This document shows, piece after piece, positions 2,623-30,299 of a stretch of DNA of 64,000 bases; the first letter of the stretch is position 1, and every line of letters starts with the position of its first letter. The stretch covers positions 152,435 to 216,434 of the forward strand of contig CAWAOX010000018.1 of assembly GCA_963783835.1 (NCBI GenBank). The letters run 5' to 3'. This DNA comes from an uncultured Actinomycetota bacterium (GTDB taxonomy: Bacteria > Actinomycetota > Thermoleophilia > RBG-16-64-13). Position numbers and translations under genes: made by a program. Under the pieces are notes generated by a model. That model did not search any database, was not told the DNA's origin, and saw only the letters and a program-made list of their open reading frames with translations.

Positions 2623-4133
2623 ATGACGACCAACGGCAGCACGTACGACGTGATCATCGTGGGCGGAGGGCCTGCCGGGATCTTTGCCGCTCTTGAGCTG
2701 GCCGCCAAGCCCGGCCTGCGGGTGCTCCTCCTCGAAAAGGGGGCCGACATCTCTGACCGGCGGTGCCCGGCGCGCGATACCGGCTCCTGCGCTCACTGTC
2801 CCACCTGCGACATAACGACCGGTTGGGGAGGAGCGGGCGCTTTCTCCGATGGCAAGCTCACGCTTGGCCCAGAGGTGGGGGGCTGGCTGGGCGACTACGT
2901 CGACGCGAAGGGAATGCTCAAGCTGATCGCCGACGTCGATGGCATCTACCGGCGATTCGGGGCCCCCGACCGGCTCTACGGCAACGAAGGGGACCGCTAC
3001 GATCATTGGGCCGACCTGGCGGCGAGGCAGGGCCTGCGGCTCGTGCGGTCGCCCGTGCGGCATCTGGGGACGGAACGGTCGGCCGAGGTGCTCGCCGCTA
3101 TGCGGGCCGAACTGGAAGACAAGGTCGACATCCGCACCGACACAGCGGTGGCCACGGTACTCACCGCCGACGGGCCGGCGCTACGGAAGAAGCCGGCGGA
3201 GGCCGGGGCGGCTACGCCGGCACAGCCCATGGCGAAACCGTACTCCAAGACGCAGCACGCCACCGGCGCAGCCTCCGCTGGTCTCGGTCGGGTCGCCGGC
3301 GTCACGACCGCCGACGGGCAGACCTACGAGAGCCCGATCGTGATCCTGGCCCCGGGCAGGGAGGGGTCCGCCTGGCTCACCGCGGAGGCGGGGAGGCTGG
3401 GCATCGGCTTGGTGAGCAACGCCGTCGACATCGGGGTCAGGGTGGAGGTGCCGGCGGTGGTGACCGACATCATCACCGACGAGTTGTACGAGCCCAAGCT
3501 GCTCTACACCTCGCGGCACTTCGAGGACCAGGTGCGCACCTTCTGCATGAACCCGCGGGGCGTGGTATGCACCGAGTGCTGGGGCGACGCCGTCACGGTG
3601 AACGGGCACAGCTACGCGGACTCCGACCTCAAGACCGCCAACACCAACTTCGCGCTGCTGGTCTCCACCCGGTTCACCGTGCCGTTCAAGGAGCCGATCG
3701 CGTACGGCAAGTCGGTCGCCCGTCTGGCGAACATGCTGGGCAGAGACATCCTGGTGCAGCGTCTGGGCGATCTGCGGGCGGGGCACCGCACCACACCGGA
3801 GAGATTGCGGCGCAGCGTCGTGGAACCGACGCTGCGCGCCGCCACCCCCGGCGACCTGAGCTTCGCGTTGCCCTACAGGCATCTGCGCGACCTCGTCGAC
3901 ATGCTCGACGCCCTGGACGCCCTGCTGCCGGGGGTGGGGGGCGTGACACGCTGCTCTACGGGGTCGAGGTCAAGTTCTACTCCTCGCGTCTCACGCTCGG
4001 TCCCGATCTGCAGACCCCGGTCAAGGGGCTCTACGCGGTCGGCGACGGGGCGGGCGTCACGCGCGGGTTGGTGCAGGCCTCTGCATCCGGGGTTGTGGCC
4101 GCCCGCGCGGCGCGGGCGGCGAGAGGCCGCTGA
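2623..4133 (+). CDS. FAD-dependent oxidoreductase, COG2509-like (NAD(FAD)-utilizing dehydrogenase); apparent frameshift near 3945-3960
   Basis: N-terminus DVIIVGGGPAGIFAALELA (Rossmann GxGxxG) plus a Cys cluster CPARDTGSCAHCPTC. The reading frame switches at the G-run gggggtgggggg. The conserved C-terminus LYAVGDGAGVTRGLVQASASG is found in the frame of ORF 2763..4133. Confidence 0.7.
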
Positions 4134-5588
<1,455 letters not shown>

Positions 5589-26168: not shown

Positions 26169-26555
26169 GTATCCGAACCTTTGCTTCGGGGGCCGCCCCC
26201 TCGCGCTTGCCCGAGCAACACGGCTGGCGTTTGGAGGCGTCGACCCTGGTTGACGGTTTGAATCGTACCGAGTGGGGCGTAAGGCTTACGTAAGACCGCA
26301 GTCTCAGGCTCGCGCCGCCTCTCTTGGTCCGCTCGTCCAACGTCGGCACGGGCCGACGCGATCAGTATGGGGGCGCCACGATACGCAGCGGTAAAGAGGA
26401 GATGACGATCCTGTAATCCGAACGACCGCCACGCCCTGTCGCTGGGGGACGCCCTGGCGCCCGCCGGCCTCGCTCATGTGCGGTGCCGGCCGGCGGCTCG
26501 ACATCACCGCGGGGCGTGGCTGGGGGCACGGGCGCGGCAGTTGCCGCCGTCTTCG

Positions 26556-26584
26556 TTGACACTGGGAGAGGCTAGGGCTACAAT
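26556..26584 (+). promoter_or_regulatory. Sigma70-type promoter for tRNA-Lys (TTGACA-17 nt-TACAAT)
   Basis: TTGACA at 26556-26561, a 17-nt spacer, TACAAT at 26579-26584. The tRNA 5' end is 17 nt downstream. Confidence 0.6.
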
Positions 26585-26600
26585 CCAAAGCCTCCTACGT

Positions 26601-26673
26601 GGGCCGTTAGCTCAGTTGGTAGAGCACCGGACTTTTAATCCGATGGTCGATGGTTCGAGTCCATCACGGCTCA
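26601..26673 (+). tRNA. tRNA-Lys (anticodon UUU), no encoded CCA
   Basis: Cloverleaf: acceptor gggccgt/acggctc (one G-U), D-arm gctc-agttggta-gagc, anticodon loop cTTTTaa, T-arm gatgg-ttcgagt-ccatc. A C27:A43 mismatch at the top of the anticodon stem. Confidence 0.85.
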
Positions 26674-26678
26674 TTAGG

Positions 26679-26706
26679 AAAGCCCCGCATTTGCGGGGCT
26701 TTTTCT
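26679..26706 (+). terminator. Intrinsic terminator after tRNA-Lys
   Basis: aaagccccgcatttgcggggcttttt (GC stem plus T-run) immediately 3' of the tRNA. Confidence 0.8.
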
Positions 26707-26954
26707 TGCGTCTTGAGGGACCGCTGCAGGCCGCGACGGGGGCCGGGACGCGCGCAGAATGTACACGGAATGCTGTGCGGTCCCGGTAGATATTTGACAC
26801 TGTGGCTCCGGTAGGTGTGTTCCACTTCGGGACGCGGCTCCGGTACCTGGGCGACAGTGGCTCCGGTACCTATGTGACACTTCGAGAGGACTTTGCCTCC
26901 CGGCTCCACACCAGATAGCAGGAGAAATCCGGCTATCTGGGGAGGGCAGACACC

Positions 26955-27567
26955 GTGCTTGTGGAGCTGGGACTGGTGGAACAACGGCACAAAGCCGTGC
27001 TCGAAGTGCTGGCGGGAGCCACGATCAGCGACGTGGCCATGAGGAACGGGGTCACCCGGCAGACGGTCCATCGCTGGCTGAGACGCTATGCCCGGTCGGG
27101 CTCGCCGGTCTCGTCGATCACTCCTCACGCCCGGCCAGGTGCCCGCACCAGATGGCCCCGGAGATCGAGGCCCGCGTCCTCGAACTTCGGGAGGCCCATC
27201 CCGGCTGGGGCCCGCGCACCCTGCGCCATCAGCTCGATCGCGAAGGTGTGGTCCCTCTTCCCGGGCGCTCCTCCATCTATCGCCTCTTGGTCCGTCACGG
27301 CCTGGTGGATCCTCAGAAGCGAAGACGCAAGCGGGAGGACTATAGCCGCTGGGAACGCAGCCGCTCCATGGAACTCTGGCAGATGGACATCATGGGCGGG
27401 GTGAAGCTGAAGGCGGGGCCGAACTCAAGATGATCACCGGACTCGACGACCACTCCCGCTTCTGCGTCTCCGCGCTCCTTGTGCCTCGGGCCACGGCCCG
27501 CCCGGTCTGTGAAGCTCTGGCGCTGGCCATGCGCCGCCACGGCGTCCCCGACCAGATCCTCACGGCG
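26955..27567 (+). pseudogene. IS481-family transposase, N-terminal 2/3 (HTH + start of DDE core), two frameshifts, truncated by the IS110 insertion after ...GVPDQILT
   Basis: Three frames: HTH ...TISDVAMRNGVTRQTVHRWLRRYARSG; MAPEIEARVLELREAHPGWGPRTLRHQL...ELWQMDIMGG; ITGLDDHSRFCVSALLVPRATARPVCEAL...GVPDQILT. Confidence 0.7.
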
Positions 27568-29140
27568 TGCTATGAGAGTTTTGTCAATTCCCCGTCTTGG
27601 GCTATCGGGCCGTTGGGCGTCCAATCGAGTGGAACATTCGGGATGGTCCGCGTGCGGACTTCCCATCGTGCTCGTCGGACTTCTTGCCCGAGGGAGCGAG
27701 GGTGGCCAAGCGGTCGCGACGAGCTGACATCACTCGATATCGCCCACGACAACGGACGACCTCTTCCTCTCTCCGGTATTAGCCGAAGCCCTCGGGAAAC
27801 TGCCAAGCGACGAGAGCGACTCCTTTCCACGCATGCTCCGCGTCAAAGGTCTCTCGCCGCTTCATAACCGCGAACGCGTAAAGCAGCAGCTTGTTCATGC
27901 AGGCGCCGAAGGCTTACGGTCCCGACCAAGGGCCGGTCTGGCCGCTGGATGAGCCGGTCGAAGTGGGCCCGGATCCGAGGGTTGTGCTGCAGACGGGACA
28001 GGGTGGCCATATAGAGGACCTGGCGCAGCCCCGACCGACCTCGGTGGGTCATGCCCTGTTTTCGACCGATCCGCTGCCCGGTGTCATGCCGGGAAGGATC
28101 GGTGCCCGCGAGCTTGATGAGCTGTCTGCCGTGGCGATACTTGTCGATCGAGCCCACATGGGCAAGGATGCCAGCGGCAGACGACCAAGCGAGGCCGGGG
28201 ATGCTGAGCAGATAGCGACTTTCCTCCACAACTGCAAGCACCTTCTGGATCTCATGGGCGAGCGCGTCAATCTGATCGCTCAGGAGATCGACGCGCCCAA
28301 CCAGACGAGCAAGTTCCCGGACCAGAGGGCCCAGAGCAGCCGCGGGGACCACCGTGCGCTGCGCCCTTTCATGAACAGCCATGAGCTTGAACCGCCAGAG
28401 CCGGCGACCCCGACTGGCGGCTTTTACCTGCGAATGAAGTCATTCACGGGAAGAGCCGCAATCTCCTGGGGAGTGAGGCCGAGCCTAAGGACAGCCACAC
28501 ACCCTGGGGCGAGAAGATCCGTCCAGACCGAACGCAGCTCCGGGGAAGACCCCATAGAGCTGATGGCTAAGCAGCGTCTTTAAGCGGGCCCGCTCCTCAC
28601 GCAGGCGGGCATATTCGCCCAGGATCGACGGAGTGGATCAGGGGCCAGCTTCCACCTTGGTTTCGGTGACCAGGTCGTTGCGCACAAGTTCGGCTATCTG
28701 TTCGGCGTCAGAAATATCGGTCTTGTGCCGGTTCATCTGCCGAGCTTCGCGCAGGCGGAAGGTGGCGAGAGGATTCACGATGACGTACTCCTCGCCGCGG
28801 GCTTCCAGATAGTGGGCCAGAGCCTCCCACACGTGTCCGGTTGCCTCAAAGGCAAATACACGCCGGCCTGCTGACTGTGAGGCAAGCAGTCGGGTTCGCA
28901 TCAGAAGATCGTCGAATCCGACGAGCGAGTGGGGAACCCGAAACCGAGTGAGCCGCTCTCCCTCCATCCGGCAGATAACTGCCTGGTGCTGCTCTCCCGC
29001 CAGGTCAAGCCCCACGATGATATCCTCGGGCTCAAGGCGTAGTCTCCGGGCCATGATGGTTACCTCCTTTGGTTTGGCGCCTAAGGAATAACCCATGACG
29101 GAGATTCACACCTACTCTTATTCTTCCATAGTTCCATACT
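27564..29140 (-). mobile_element. IS110-family insertion sequence nested inside the IS481 transposase gene (boundaries inferred from the interrupted ILT|DNG codons)
   Basis: The IS481 ORF reads ...QILT up to 27563 and resumes ...ILDNGHEF at 29136. The intervening 1.58 kb encodes an IS110-type DEDD transposase on the minus strand, with an 86-bp 5' and a 279-bp 3' non-coding region. Confidence 0.65.
27843..29054 (-). pseudogene. IS110-family (DEDD) transposase, N- and C-terminal domains in different frames (frameshift(s) between 28383 and 28637)
   Basis: N-domain IVGLDLAGEQHQAV...AFEATGHVWEAL...VNPLATFRLREARQMNRHKTDISDAEQIAELVR (DEDD_Tnp_IS110), ORF 28638..29096. C-domain LLSIPGLAWSSAAGILAHVGSIDKYRHGRQLIKLAGTDPSRHDTG (Transposase_20), ORF 27843..28382. 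AGGAGG RBS 8 nt before the ATG at 29054. Confidence 0.7.
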
Positions 29141-29423
29141 CGACAACGGCCACGAGTTCCAGGCCAAGTTCCACTGGCACGTCGAGGACCAGGGCATGCG
29201 CCATACCTACATCAAGCCAAGAAGCCCGAACTTAAACGGCAAAGTGGAGCGTTCCCACCTCACTGACGAACTCGAGTTCTACCAACTCCTTGAGTACACC
29301 GACGACGTCGATCTCGCGGAGAAGCTCGCGGTCTGGGAGGAGTTCTACAACGTCCATCGGCCGCACGCTGCTCATGACGGGCGGACACCCTATGAGGTCC
29401 TCAGAGAGAAGTTGGTATCGTGA
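29136..29423 (+). pseudogene. IS481-family transposase C-terminal piece (end of rve core)
   Basis: ILDNGHEFQAKFHWHVEDQGMRHTYIKPRSPNLNGKVERSHLTDELEFYQLL...LAVWEEFYNVHRPHAAHDGRTPYEVL. Confidence 0.7.
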
Positions 29424-29514
29424 AAGTGTCAACCGAGGTCGTACAGGTCACAGTCAGAGCTCAGAACTCCTGCAGCAACCGGTTGTCTGACGCATATCCT
29501 GACCGCCGTCCGGA

Positions 29515-30186
29515 CTAGTCAAGCAAGTAGGCAATAGCTCGCGCAGGTGCTCCATCACCGGCCGTAATGCGAAGCGGAAGACAAACGAAGTAAATCCTCT
29601 TGCCCCCCAGTTGCTTGGCTACGGAACTGATTTCCTCGATGAGGGGAATGCCATTGCCGAGCAGAATATTGTGCGCCGGGTTCGACGTATCTCCGTATTT
29701 ATCGATGCTGAAGAAGTCTATGCCCACGGATTTCACTTTCTTCGCCACTAGCCATTCCGCACCGCTCCGATCGACGTATGTGTAGTTCGAATTGAGCCAC
29801 GCCTCTCCAAGATGGTCGGCGCAGCCGGTGTAGAGGATGACAATATCTCCTGGTCTCACCAACTCAGAGAACTTCTCCAGATCCTCGGCGCCAACAGCGG
29901 ACCCAAGCTCCTTGTCCGAAAGATCGAGGACAACTGCCTCCCCCATGAAGAGGTTCAGGTCCAATTCTTCGAGCGATAAACCTTCATTGAAGCGATGCCG
30001 CGGCGCATCGACATGCGTCCCCTGGTGCGTAGAAATCTTGAATCTGTGAACGTTAAATCCATTCTTTTCCACAGATGAGACCTGTTCAATCACCGCCGGC
30101 GCGTTGGCAGGATAGAAGGGCATCCCCTCCCATACTGGGTTGGACAGGTCATAGTATTTGCCTTTGAACGGGGCCGTCGCAGCCAT
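29515..30186 (-). CDS. Cyclase-family protein (kynurenine formamidase / isatin hydrolase type, PF04199-like), paralog A1
   Basis: HQGTHVDAPRHRF metal-binding motif, and a C-terminal HNILLGNGIPLIEE block identical to the paralog at 42133..42852. Noticeably lower GC than the pur region. Confidence 0.75.
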   Translation of the reverse strand: MAATAPFKGKYYDLSNPVWEGMPFYPANAPAVIEQVSSVEKNGFNVHRFKISTHQGTHVDAPRHRFNEGLSLEELDLNLFMGEAVVLDLSDKELGSAVGAEDLEKFSELVRPGDIVILYTGCADHLGEAWLNSNYTYVDRSGAEWLVAKKVKSVGIDFFSIDKYGDTSNPAHNILLGNGIPLIEEISSVAKQLGGKRIYFVCLPLRITAGDGAPARAIAYLLD

Positions 30187-30299
30187 TCTGGACTCCTTTG
30201 GTCTTGTCCTGCTATTCGTTAAGAACGCGGCGGTACGAATTCTCGTGCGAGTTACACTCTAGTTGCTGAGGACTAAGTCGGCGGAGCGGAACCCGCCCC

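What the first reader, a model, noticed from the sequence alone, without database searches (positions are those of the whole stretch)
27564..29140. IS110-family element inserted precisely inside the IS481 transposase gene, with a 279-bp 3' non-coding region that may encode a bridge/guide RNA
The IS481 ORF is cleanly split between ...GVPDQILT (ends 27563) and ILDNGHEF... (29136), the signature of a precise IS110-type insertion without terminal inverted repeats. IS110/IS1111 recombinases use a structured non-coding RNA from the element end to recognise target and donor. Here the 3' flank of the transposase gene (27564-27842) is long and contains ACTCGA (27732-27737) and CGACAACGG (27747-27755) split by 9 nt. 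Together these reproduce the right target flank ACTCGACAACGG (29138-29149), as expected for a split target-guide segment. The transposase itself is frameshifted, so the element may be inactive.
Basis: partly seen in the sequence, partly recalled or inferred. Interest (0 to 1): 0.55.

Follow-up and report, generated by a model that had tools for sequence, protein, structure and literature searches.

The report
Dead RNA-guided IS110 inside IS481
A decayed copy of an RNA-guided (IS110-family) jumping gene sits precisely inside the transposase gene of another jumping gene (IS481); its 3' end still carries a recognisable bridge-type guide RNA whose guide matches the insertion site, a known kind of system in a previously undescribed lineage.

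Summary
A 1577-bp IS110-family element (27564-29140, minus strand) splits an IS481-family transposase gene with no duplication. Joining the flanks restores ...QILT-DNG-HEF in frame.

The region 3' of the transposase gene does encode a bridge/seek-type RNA:
- A covariance model built only from distant relatives hits the window once (27607-27776, minus strand; 110.9 bits).
- The fold has two stem/internal-loop domains, with 19 compensatory pairs.
- Relatives with guides CCAGACUC or CCUUGGUC sit next to CCAGACTC or CCCTGGTC flanks.

It lies in the loop of a small variable hairpin and is not conserved. The "ACT" of the supposed flank is actually the element's own end.

The clade targets the DNA word GACAACGG, which encodes the D-N-G of the second catalytic Asp of rve transposases (IS481/IS3). 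ISEc21, an unrelated IS110-family member, is a published precedent for this target.

The window copy is a relic. It has six frame-changing indels, a lost stop codon and two deletions in the RNA. Verdict: a new member of a known kind, of moderate-low interest.

The parts
27564..29140 (-). Complete but decayed IS110-family insertion sequence (1577 bp). In its own orientation it starts AGTATGGAAC... and ends ...TTGACA-N17-..CATAGCACGCC.
   Evidence: Homology breakpoints among independent insertions. In-frame reconstruction of the target. 91.8% nt identity to intact relative L034.
27803..29096 (-). Transposase pseudogene (DEDD RuvC-like domain plus Transposase_20 domain). The start is at 29096 or 29054. 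It has seven indels (28639, 28635, 28620, 28541, 28427, 27925, 27921), six of them frame-changing. The family stop codon at 27803-27805 is mutated to TGG.
   Evidence: (93% identity to intact P0001).
27607..27776 (-). Bridge/seek-type guide RNA gene with two stem/internal-loop domains. It is slightly damaged by 1-nt deletions at 27676 and 27671 in the 5' strand of domain 2.
   Evidence: The covariance model from 32 distant relatives gives its only strong hit in the 64 kb window here (110.9 bits, E 1e-18). Consensus fold with 19 compensatory pairs. Lesions.
27747..27755 (-). Left target guide (RNA CCGUUGUCG) on the 5' strand of loop 1. [quoted passage not shown]
   Evidence: Conserved position in the alignment. 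It is replaced by CCAGACTC, CCTTGGTC or CCGTGGTC in sub-families whose flanks change in step.
27726..27741 (-). Small variable hairpin inside loop 1 (GAUAUC-GAGU-GAUGUC).
   Evidence: The stem covaries and the loop sequence is not conserved (helices 4-5).
27710..27715 (-). Candidate right target guide plus handshake base (RNA GACCGC) on the 3' strand of loop 1. The CCGC part is nearly invariant.
   Evidence: Complementarity to G-CG-RT at the right junction: 138/315 positions, with 5/10000 permutations as good. It reaches 4-5/5 in the retargeted group but only 2/5 in the window.
27625..27630 (-). Right donor guide plus handshake base (RNA ACUCGA) on the 3' strand of loop 2. It is complementary to T-C-G|A-G-T of the left junction or circle junction.
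   Evidence: CUCGA is invariant. The preceding base is Watson-Crick to left-end base 3 in 57/57 insertions, across 17 sub-families and 3 pair types.
27610..27615 (-). 'Block 2' (RNA CAACGG) just 3' of domain 2. It is the reverse complement of guide nt 1-6, which equals the complement of the top strand of the left target. Its role is unresolved.
   Evidence: It co-changes with the guide: CCAAGG with CCUUGG, CACGG with CCGUGG, and CUACGG/CUCCGG/CUCUGG with CCAGAC.
27582..27587 (-). TTGACA (-35-like) at a fixed distance from the right end. It is followed by 17 nt, then the terminal C plus the left end AGTAT, which would form a junction promoter only in a circularised element.
   Evidence: Invariant TTGAC(A/G)-N17 spacing in 51 NCR variants. 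Left ends are always AG(T/G/A)AT. Junction promoters are published for this family (PMC11187229). The promoter itself is inferred.
29141..29149 (+). Target half-site CGACAACGG in the IS481 gene (codons ..C GAC AAC GG = D-N-G of the rve second catalytic Asp motif).
26771..27563 (+). Left part of the host IS481-family element (HTH domains and the start of the rve domain, itself frameshifted). The outer end is approximate.
   Evidence: Imperfect terminal inverted repeat, 16/24.
29141..29448 (+). Right part of the host IS481-family element (rest of rve/rve_3). The outer end is approximate.

Best explanation
The interval is a dead copy of an RNA-guided IS110-family insertion sequence from an undescribed lineage. 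This lineage has a long (417-431 aa) DEDD transposase with a Thr-Gly nucleophile motif, and its guide RNA is encoded downstream of the transposase gene.

Inferred mechanism, by analogy with IS621 and ISEc21:
1. The element excises as a circle. This joins its right end (TTGACA-N17) to its left end (AGTAT), which creates a promoter.
2. The roughly 170-200-nt RNA folds into two stem/internal-loop domains.
3. Loop 1 reads the target. [quoted passage not shown] Its 3' strand, ..CCGC, pairs with the core and the first bases of the right flank.
4. Loop 2 reads the element's own junction. Its 3' strand, N-CUCG-A, pairs with T-C-G|A-G-N.
5. The recombinase exchanges strands immediately 3' of C-N, without duplication.

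Because CCGTTGTC is the reverse complement of GAC AAC GG, the element lands in the D-N-G codons of the second catalytic aspartate of rve-type transposases. Here that is an IS481 copy, which it inactivated.

What is shown: element boundaries, protein family, RNA structure covariation, guide-flank and guide-end covariation, and decay of this copy.
What is inferred: RNA expression, base pairing with DNA, circle formation and the promoter.
For: - Protein family: PF01548+PF02371, NF033542 1.3e-49. DEDD residues are invariant in 17 homologues. Domain-level match to IS621 and ISCro4 structures.
- Precise in-frame target reconstruction.
- The same junction logic, CCrTTrTC-N|AG(T/G/A)AT ... CATAGCACGC(C/G)|, holds in relatives from 93% down to about 52% identity, including about 20 copies in one Vicinamibacterales genome.
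- RNA: the consensus two-domain fold has 96.4% of cells paired, against 84% in shuffles and 37-54% when partners are slid. It has 19 compensatory pairs and a covariation score of 0.404 vs 0.186, reached by 0/500 shuffles.
- A model built without the window's family finds one hit in the window (110.9 bits). It finds one hit per locus, always downstream of tnp and on its strand, in 82 of 93 loci.
- Guide-target covariation: 57 unique insertions, 7.5/8 identity, 0/10000 permutations as good. The CCAGACTC guide goes with a CCAGACTC flank at 5 independent sites, and CCTTGGTC goes with CCCTGGTC.
- Loop-2 base vs left-end base 3: 57/57 Watson-Crick.
- Loop-1 3' strand vs right flank: 5/10000 permutations as good.
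- Targets are rve/IS3/IS481 genes, and once a histidine kinase DNGPG box, showing that the DNA word is what is read.
Against: - No expression or binding data exist, so the RNA ends are unknown.
- No convincing left donor guide was found. There is only a 5-nt GCACG identity to the right end, and it is not maintained in one sub-family.
- Complementarity to the right flank is weak for the DNG-targeting members, at 2/5 in the window.
- The 2-nt 'core' is ambiguous. The left junction always shows the target's variable N, and the right junction always shows the element's C or G.
- The ninth guide base matches the flank in the window but not in most relatives.
- My left-junction finder chose among AGNAT candidates by similarity to the guide. 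This is a mild bias, although the ends were fixed independently for the two best-sampled families.
- One element (L115) has guide CCTTGGTC but sits at CCATTATC (5/8).
- Rfam has no family for comparison.
Confidence: 0.85

Rival explanations
1. The 3' region is conserved because it is a protein-binding transposon end plus promoter, not an RNA. Target choice (CCGTTGTC) is made by the transposase protein.
For: The terminal ~45 nt (TTGACA...CATAGCACGC) are nearly invariant and show no pairing signal. Helix 6 of the model never varies, so it is untested.
Against: Nineteen base pairs keep pairing through double changes, with controls failing. The octamer at a fixed loop position changes together with the flank in closely related elements: L061 vs L062 have the same sub-family NCR, different guides and different flanks. 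This is hard to explain by protein recognition.
Confidence: 0.05
2. The internal CCGTTGTC(G) is a scar: a piece of target sequence captured into the element, or a chance match. It is not a functional guide.
For: A 9-mer match alone has p about 0.007 per element. The ninth base is not matched in most relatives.
Against: The octamer is at the same alignment column in 41 diverse NCRs. It lies in an internal loop flanked by covarying helices. It is replaced by three other octamers that match their own flanks.
Confidence: 0.03
3. One reading: a split target guide, ACTCGA ... CGACAACGG, separated by 9 nt, together reads the right flank ACTCGACAACGG.
For: Both strings exist in the window with the stated spacing. 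None of 20000 shuffles reproduced both in that geometry.
Against: ACT of the 'flank' belongs to the element. The ACTCGA segment is a hairpin loop that reads CACATG, TTTGAC, CTGGGG and so on in relatives that use the same target. Both halves would pair with the same DNA strand, unlike any known bridge or seek RNA (PMC11208160, PMC11187229).
Confidence: 0.03
4. Block 2 (CAACGG) is not a DNA guide. It pairs with the guide's first six bases within the RNA, masking or structuring the guide until the protein or target opens it.
For: Block 2 is the exact reverse complement of guide nt 1-6 in nearly all CCGTTGTC members, and it co-changes with it. The single-sequence MFE fold of the window RNA pairs this region with the guide region.
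Against: Elements with only 3/6 complementarity (guide CCAGAC with block 2 CUACGG) have still inserted at several independent sites. The alignment fold does not predict this helix. Because the guide equals the target top strand, RNA-RNA and RNA-DNA pairing cannot be told apart from sequence.
Confidence: 0.4

Closest known systems
IS621 / IS110-group bridge RNA (Durrant et al. 2024, PMC11208160; Hiraizumi et al. 2024, PMC11208158)
   Same: - DEDD plus Tnp-domain recombinase.
- RNA with two internal loops.
- The 5' strand of loop 1 (8-9 nt) has the sense of the left target plus the first core base.
- The 3' strands are complementary to core plus right target or right donor (4-7 nt), followed by a 'handshake' base.
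- No duplication.
- -35 in the right end.
   Different: - The RNA is downstream of tnp, not upstream.
- The transposase is 417-431 aa rather than 326 aa, and only domain-level similarity is detectable (E 1e-18).
- The nucleophile motif is TG, not SG.
- No clear left donor guide.
- An extra 3' block is complementary to the distal part of the left target.
- The core (C-N) is not a fixed dinucleotide.
ISEc21 and its seekRNA (Siddiquee et al. 2024, PMC11187229)
   Same: [quoted passage not shown]
- No duplication.
- The bottom-strand match is 5' of the top-strand match.
- Natural retargeting occurs in a relative (ISMch6).
   Different: - There is no detectable pairwise protein similarity to this clade (E 0.1).
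- Its transposase is 358 aa.
- Its NCR is upstream.
- It is found in Enterobacteria, whereas this clade comes from soil and peat metagenomes and Vicinamibacterales.
- Whether the DNA word is the same could not be checked.
IS1111-group elements (ISEc11, ISKpn4, IS4321/IS5075)
   Same: The long NCR and guide RNA are downstream of tnp. The S/T-G motif occurs as TG. They are site-specific for conserved repeated sequences, including parts of other mobile elements.
   Different: IS1111 transposases are 330-350 aa, their subterminal inverted repeats are 7-17 bp, and the top-strand match is 5' of the bottom-strand match. Here the protein is long, only about 5-6 bp of CTATG/CATAG symmetry is present, and the order is bottom then top.
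Long IS110-type transposases such as ISCth7 (ISfinder sequence in PMC11187229 supplement)
   Same: Full-length alignment, 25% identity, E 2e-39. Similar length.
   Different: Only distantly related. NCR arrangement and target were not compared.

Membership tests
IS110 family (sensu lato, RNA-guided DEDD transposases) | Transposase with DEDD RuvC-like domain (PF01548) and C-terminal Tnp domain (PF02371) | tested here: met
   Stitched window protein: PF01548 2.3e-23, PF02371 8.8e-18, NF033542 1.3e-49 above cutoff.
IS110 family (sensu lato, RNA-guided DEDD transposases) | Catalytic D-E-D-D and G--P----S/T-G motif | tested here: met
   D31, E84, D127 and D130 are invariant in 17 homologues, as are G332, P335 and G341. 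The motif reads LAGTNPSRxDTG, the Thr variant. These residues are present in the window copy, but the ORF is broken.
IS110 family (sensu lato, RNA-guided DEDD transposases) | Site-specific insertion without target duplication and without long terminal inverted repeats | tested here: met
   In-frame reconstruction of the window target and of 10 other targets. There is no terminal inverted repeat beyond about 5-6 bp.
IS110 family (sensu lato, RNA-guided DEDD transposases) | Structured non-coding RNA in the long non-coding end, with covariation-supported stems | tested here: met
Bridge RNA (IS621 model) | Left target guide: 5' strand of loop 1 matches left target plus core | tested here: met
   7.5/8 identity over 57 insertions. 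Four guide classes co-vary with their flanks; 0/10000 permutations as good.
Bridge RNA (IS621 model) | Right target guide: 3' strand of loop 1 is complementary to core plus right target | tested here: inconclusive
   Significant overall (5/10000 permutations) and 4-5/5 in the retargeted group, but only 1-3/5 in most DNG-targeting members and 2/5 in the window.
Bridge RNA (IS621 model) | Right donor guide: 3' strand of loop 2 is complementary to core plus the element's left end | tested here: met
   The invariant CUCG is complementary to C-G-A-G. The adjacent base is Watson-Crick to left-end base 3 in 57/57 insertions, with three pair types. Only one position is variable, so the test is narrow.
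Bridge RNA (IS621 model) | Left donor guide: 5' strand of loop 2 matches the right end plus core (8-9 nt) | tested here: not met
   Only GCACG (5 nt) is shared with ..ATAGCACGC. It becomes GCUCG in one sub-family while the right end stays invariant, and the core is not included.
Bridge RNA (IS621 model) | RNA is transcribed, binds the recombinase and is required for recombination | not testable with these tools
   No transcriptome or biochemical data are available.
IS1111 subgroup | Long NCR and guide RNA downstream of tnp | tested here: met
   About 239-nt 3' NCR against about 45-85-nt 5' NCR. The RNA model always hits downstream of tnp.
IS1111 subgroup | Subterminal inverted repeats of 7-17 bp | tested here: not met
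   Only (G)CTATG near the left end vs CATAG(C) near the right end, 5-6 bp, degenerate in other sub-families.
IS1111 subgroup | Compact transposase of 330-350 aa related over its full length to IS1111 Tnp | tested here: not met
   Intact relatives are 417-431 aa. Relatedness to IS1111 Tnp itself was not tested.
IS110 subgroup (sensu stricto) | Long NCR upstream of tnp | tested here: not met
   The NCR is downstream. PMC11187229 notes that a minority of IS110-type elements have this arrangement.
IS110 subgroup (sensu stricto) | Bottom-strand match is 5' of the top-strand match in the RNA; long-form transposases of 395-455 aa | tested here: met
   The guide (bottom-strand sense) precedes the CCGC strand and block 2 (top-strand complements). 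Lengths are 417-431 aa. Full-length similarity to ISCth7.
ISEc21 lineage | Homologous transposase | tested here: not met
   BLASTP best E 0.096 over 17 residues.
Any Rfam family | Match to a curated covariance model | tested here: not met
   No hit inside the element even at E<=10. None in five related loci.

The most novel reading that the evidence does not exclude
This lineage's guide RNA carries a third target-sensing segment that the IS621 model lacks. This is 'block 2', which is complementary to the top strand of the distal six bases of the left target, or equivalently to the guide itself.

When the lineage retargeted from CCGTTGTC to CCAGACTC, block 2 changed stepwise (CAACGG, then CUACGG, CUCCGG, CUCUGG). 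Every substitution moved towards complementarity with the new guide.

If block 2 clamps the displaced target strand, or gates the guide by masking it, that would be a new layer of specificity or regulation in bridge recombinases. It would come with natural examples of its reprogramming.
Probability: 0.3. Interest if true: 0.55.

Novelty: new member of a known kind. Interest (0 to 1): 0.35.

Why it matters
RNA-guided IS110/IS1111 recombinases are being developed as programmable genome-rearrangement tools, and natural diversity informs their design rules.

This lineage offers several things:
- It is far from characterised systems: under 30% identity to any annotated plasmid-borne homologue, and only domain-level similarity to IS621 and ISCro4.
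- It has an IS110-type long protein, a Thr nucleophile motif and a 3'-encoded two-loop RNA.
- It contains clear natural retargeting events in which the guide, the 3' strand of loop 1 and a third block all change with the target.
- It shows that targeting the codons of the second catalytic Asp of rve transposases, in effect an IS that kills other ISs, has arisen independently of ISEc21.

For the window itself the biological meaning is modest. It holds a nested pair of dead mobile elements next to a tRNA-Lys gene.

Tried and rejected
1. Rfam search of the region at E<=10 found nothing in the element. Related loci also gave nothing.
2. I looked for other copies of either IS in the window by BLAST and with the RNA model. 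There are none.
3. I tried to find a left donor guide. GCACG in the 5' strand of loop 2 is too short and not maintained. AGC(U/C)CG after the hairpin sits in a covarying helix. Both were rejected.
4. I tried to define a 2-nt core. A C-G core fits the invariant CG in both 3' strands. However, the left junction carries the target's variable N and the right junction carries the element's own C or G in every case. The alternative 'CG' parse of the window's right junction would leave the target 1 nt short of frame. This is left unresolved.
5. I tested extended pairing of the window's GUUCCACUCG with its own left end (AGT--GGAAC). It is not maintained in the 93% relative, so I treat it as chance.
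6. I tested whether TTGACAA near the right end is a top-strand target guide. It is invariant even in retargeted elements, so it is better read as a -35 box.
7. I tested kinship with ISEc21 and found none detectable.
8. I searched the ISEc21 paper's supplements for the words GACAACGG and CCGTTGTC. They are absent, so the identity of the two target words remains unknown.
9. The single-sequence fold of the window RNA is not significantly more stable than shuffles (z -1.77). The evidence for structure comes from covariation, not thermodynamics.
Full report
**1. What is in the sequence**

Reading 26400-30200 and listing ORFs shows three things:
- a tRNA-Lys(UUU) at 26600-26674;
- a plus-strand IS481-family transposase reading frame, split and itself frameshifted;
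- between its halves, a minus-strand gene in several broken pieces.

Pfam and NCBIfam identify the insert's stitched product as an IS110-family DEDD transposase: PF01548 2.3e-23, PF02371 8.8e-18, and NF033542 'IS110 family RNA-guided transposase' 1.3e-49. The host is IS481/rve.

Neither IS has a second copy in the window.

**2. Exact boundaries**

Intact relatives exist in metagenomes (P0001 at 93% identity, down to P0006 at 76%). There is also a ~52%-identical multi-copy family in Vicinamibacterales MAGs.

I aligned the window to 13 contigs carrying the close relatives. In the element's own orientation, homology begins at AGTATG... and stops at ...CATAGCACGCC, with different DNA beyond in independent insertions.

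Joining the flanks gives CAG ATC CTC ACC GAC AAC GGC = QILTDNG, in frame and with no duplication.

Two corrections follow. The family's stop codon corresponds to 27803-27805 (TAA mutated to TGG here), so the 3' non-coding region is about 239 nt.

**3. The copy is a relic**

Against the intact L034 element (91.8% nt identity), the window ORF has seven indels, at 28639, 28635, 28620, 28541, 28427, 27925 and 27921. All but the 3-nt deletion at 28635 change the reading frame. The RNA region has 1-nt deletions at 27676 and 27671.

**4. A conserved target**

Every close relative, and the Vicinamibacterales copies, sit between the C-terminal and N-terminal halves of an rve-family transposase gene on the opposite strand.

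The upstream flank is always CCrTTrTC-N, the reverse complement of xxN GAC AAC GG. The downstream flank varies: GTGAGGAT for IS481-like ILT|DNG, CTTCTTAT or GACCGCAG for IS3-like xRS|DNG.

Reconstructed targets read (T/S/R/A)DNGxEF. Six of seven scanned are rve/rve_3/IS481 proteins. One (L026) is a HATPase_c histidine kinase hit at its DNGPG box. This shows that the DNA word, not the protein family, is recognised.

**5. The 3' region is an RNA gene**

A metagenome scan added 80 loci. This gave 51 distinct NCR variants, all ending TTGAC(A/G)-N17-...ATAGCACGC.

An alignment of 41 variants folds into two domains:
- Domain 1 is a long stem (CCGGAGAGAGG.../...CCUCGCUCC) enclosing an internal loop, with a small variable hairpin inside.
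- Domain 2 is a stem (GUCCGG.../...UUGGAC) enclosing a second internal loop and hairpin.

On an alignment of 32 relatives that excludes the window's family, the structure is well supported:
- 96.4% of cells are paired, against 84.3% in shuffles and 37-54% when partners are slid.
- 19 pairs show double changes.
- The covariation score is 0.404 vs 0.186, reached by 0/500 shuffles.

The covariance model from that alignment finds exactly one strong hit in the 64-kb window: 27607-27776 on the minus strand, full length, 110.9 bits, E about 1e-18. It finds one hit per locus, always downstream of tnp and on its strand, in 82 of 93 loci. Intact close relatives score 123-128 bits, consistent with slight decay here.

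Rfam has no matching family. The single-sequence fold is not by itself significant (z -1.77).

**6. Guides**

At the same column other sub-families carry CCAGACUC, CCUUGGUC or CCGUGGUC.
- The CCAGACUC elements lie next to CCAGACTC-N|AGTAT at five independent sites.
- The CCUUGGUC element L058 lies next to CCCTGGTC.
- Over 57 unique insertions the guide and flank agree at 7.5/8 positions. At the variable positions, 0 of 10,000 permutations do as well.

*(b) Loop-2 3' strand.* The invariant CUCGA on the 3' strand of loop 2 (27629->27625) is complementary to T-C-G|A-G of the left junction. The base before it (27630) is Watson-Crick to left-end base 3 in 57/57 insertions: A:T, C:G and U:A, across 17 sub-families. 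This also explains why positions 7-8 (T, C) of all four target classes never change.

*(c) Loop-1 3' strand.* The 3' strand of loop 1 ends in a nearly invariant CCGC, complementary to G-CG-G at the right junction. The five bases before the CG core track the downstream flank: 138/315 positions complementary, with 5/10,000 permutations as good. The match is 4-5/5 for the retargeted group (GUGUCCGC vs G-CG-GACAC), but weak for DNG-targeting members and 2/5 in the window.

*(d) Left donor guide.* No convincing one was found.

*(e) Block 2.* A block just 3' of domain 2 (CAACGG, 27615->27610) is the reverse complement of guide bases 1-6 and co-changes with it:
- CCAAGG goes with CCUUGG, and CACGG with CCGUGG.
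- For CCAGAC there is a stepwise series CUACGG, CUCCGG, CUCUGG.
- Elements with only 3/6 complementarity have still transposed.
- Whether it pairs with the guide or with the target's top strand cannot be decided from sequence.

**7.

It occupies the loop (GAGU) and two stem bases of the small variable hairpin in loop 1 (27726-27741). Relatives using the same target have unrelated sequences there. A hexamer match is expected at p about 0.11. It is therefore chance, and the 'split guide' geometry is not supported.

**8. Comparison with the literature**

- PMC11208160 defines the bridge RNA. The 5' loop strands pair with the bottom strand over 8-9 nt, the 3' strands pair with the top strand over 4-7 nt, and the core is included.
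- PMC11208158 adds handshake bases next to the core.
- PMC11187229 shows that the NCR is downstream in IS1111-type elements and in a minority of IS110-type elements, that junction promoters form in circles, and that ISEc21 targets the codons around the second D of DDE in IS3-family transposases.

So neither the mechanism nor the kind of target is new.

This lineage mixes traits. It has a long IS110-type protein (417-431 aa, 25% identical to ISCth7), the TG motif and 3' RNA typical of IS1111, and only ~5-6 bp of subterminal symmetry. It has no detectable similarity to ISEc21's transposase and is remote from IS621 and ISCro4 and from any annotated plasmid homologue (<30%).

**9. Verdict**

The feature is a decayed member of an undescribed lineage of a known kind of RNA-guided insertion sequence. 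It is caught in its characteristic target, the D-N-G codons of an rve transposase.

Interest is moderate-low for the window itself. Interest is somewhat higher for the lineage, because of its natural retargeting series and the unexplained third covarying block.

Noticed in passing
L026:~2870-4460 (Vicinamibacterales MAG CBDBHJ010000010.1): One copy of the ~52% relative is inserted not in a transposase but in a histidine-kinase HATPase_c domain. The site is its TVT-DNG-PGF (G1 box) codons, which contain the same GACAACGG word (PF02518 5.4e-20).
   Followed up: partly
L062, L069, L108, L117, L059 (flanks of the element); also right flanks of L057, L106, L114, L056, L109, L105, L124: The CCAGACTC-guided sub-family inserts into a conserved ~110-nt apparently non-coding sequence: ...CAACACTAGCACCC...GACATAAGnTG-CCAGACTC-N-GACACCGGCCGCCCCAGGAGCC-GATGCCACAGC. 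The site lies just upstream of an AGGAG...ATG start. DNA diverges on both sides of this sequence. There is no Rfam hit. It may be an undescribed leader or cis-regulatory RNA.
   Followed up: partly
L009, L023 (and L007, L024): In some Vicinamibacterales copies the right end is interrupted right after CTTGAC by unrelated DNA. The ...CATAGCACGC terminus reappears ~1.37 kb further on. This suggests another element nested inside this IS's right end.
   Followed up: no
L115:~1040-2765: An element whose guide column reads CCTTGGTC sits at a CCATTATC (D-N-G) site, only 5/8 matches. Its RNA also scores lowest among the full-length model hits (94 bits). It may be an off-target insertion, a recently mutated guide or a decaying copy.
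   Followed up: no
window 26783-26887: The left end of the host IS481 carries three direct copies of a ~20-nt motif (GGCTCCGGTAnnT...GACA) at 26804, 26836 and 26859, plus related CCGGTA..TGACACT repeats. These are possibly multiple transposase-binding sites. The element lies ~100 nt downstream of tRNA-Lys (26600-26674) and its terminator-like hairpin (26679-26702).
   Followed up: no
window 26955-27563 and 29141-29423: The host IS481 transposase is broken into at least three frames (26955-27404, 27152-27433, 27430-...), independently of the IS110 insertion. Both nested elements are therefore dead.
   Followed up: partly
L005-L021 (CBDANA01 contigs): About 20 copies of one IS at 92-99% identity occur in a single Vicinamibacterales genome. 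Most are inside copies of other repeated rve-type elements. The base at the left junction (N) is C, G or A, while the right junction is constant.
   Followed up: partly
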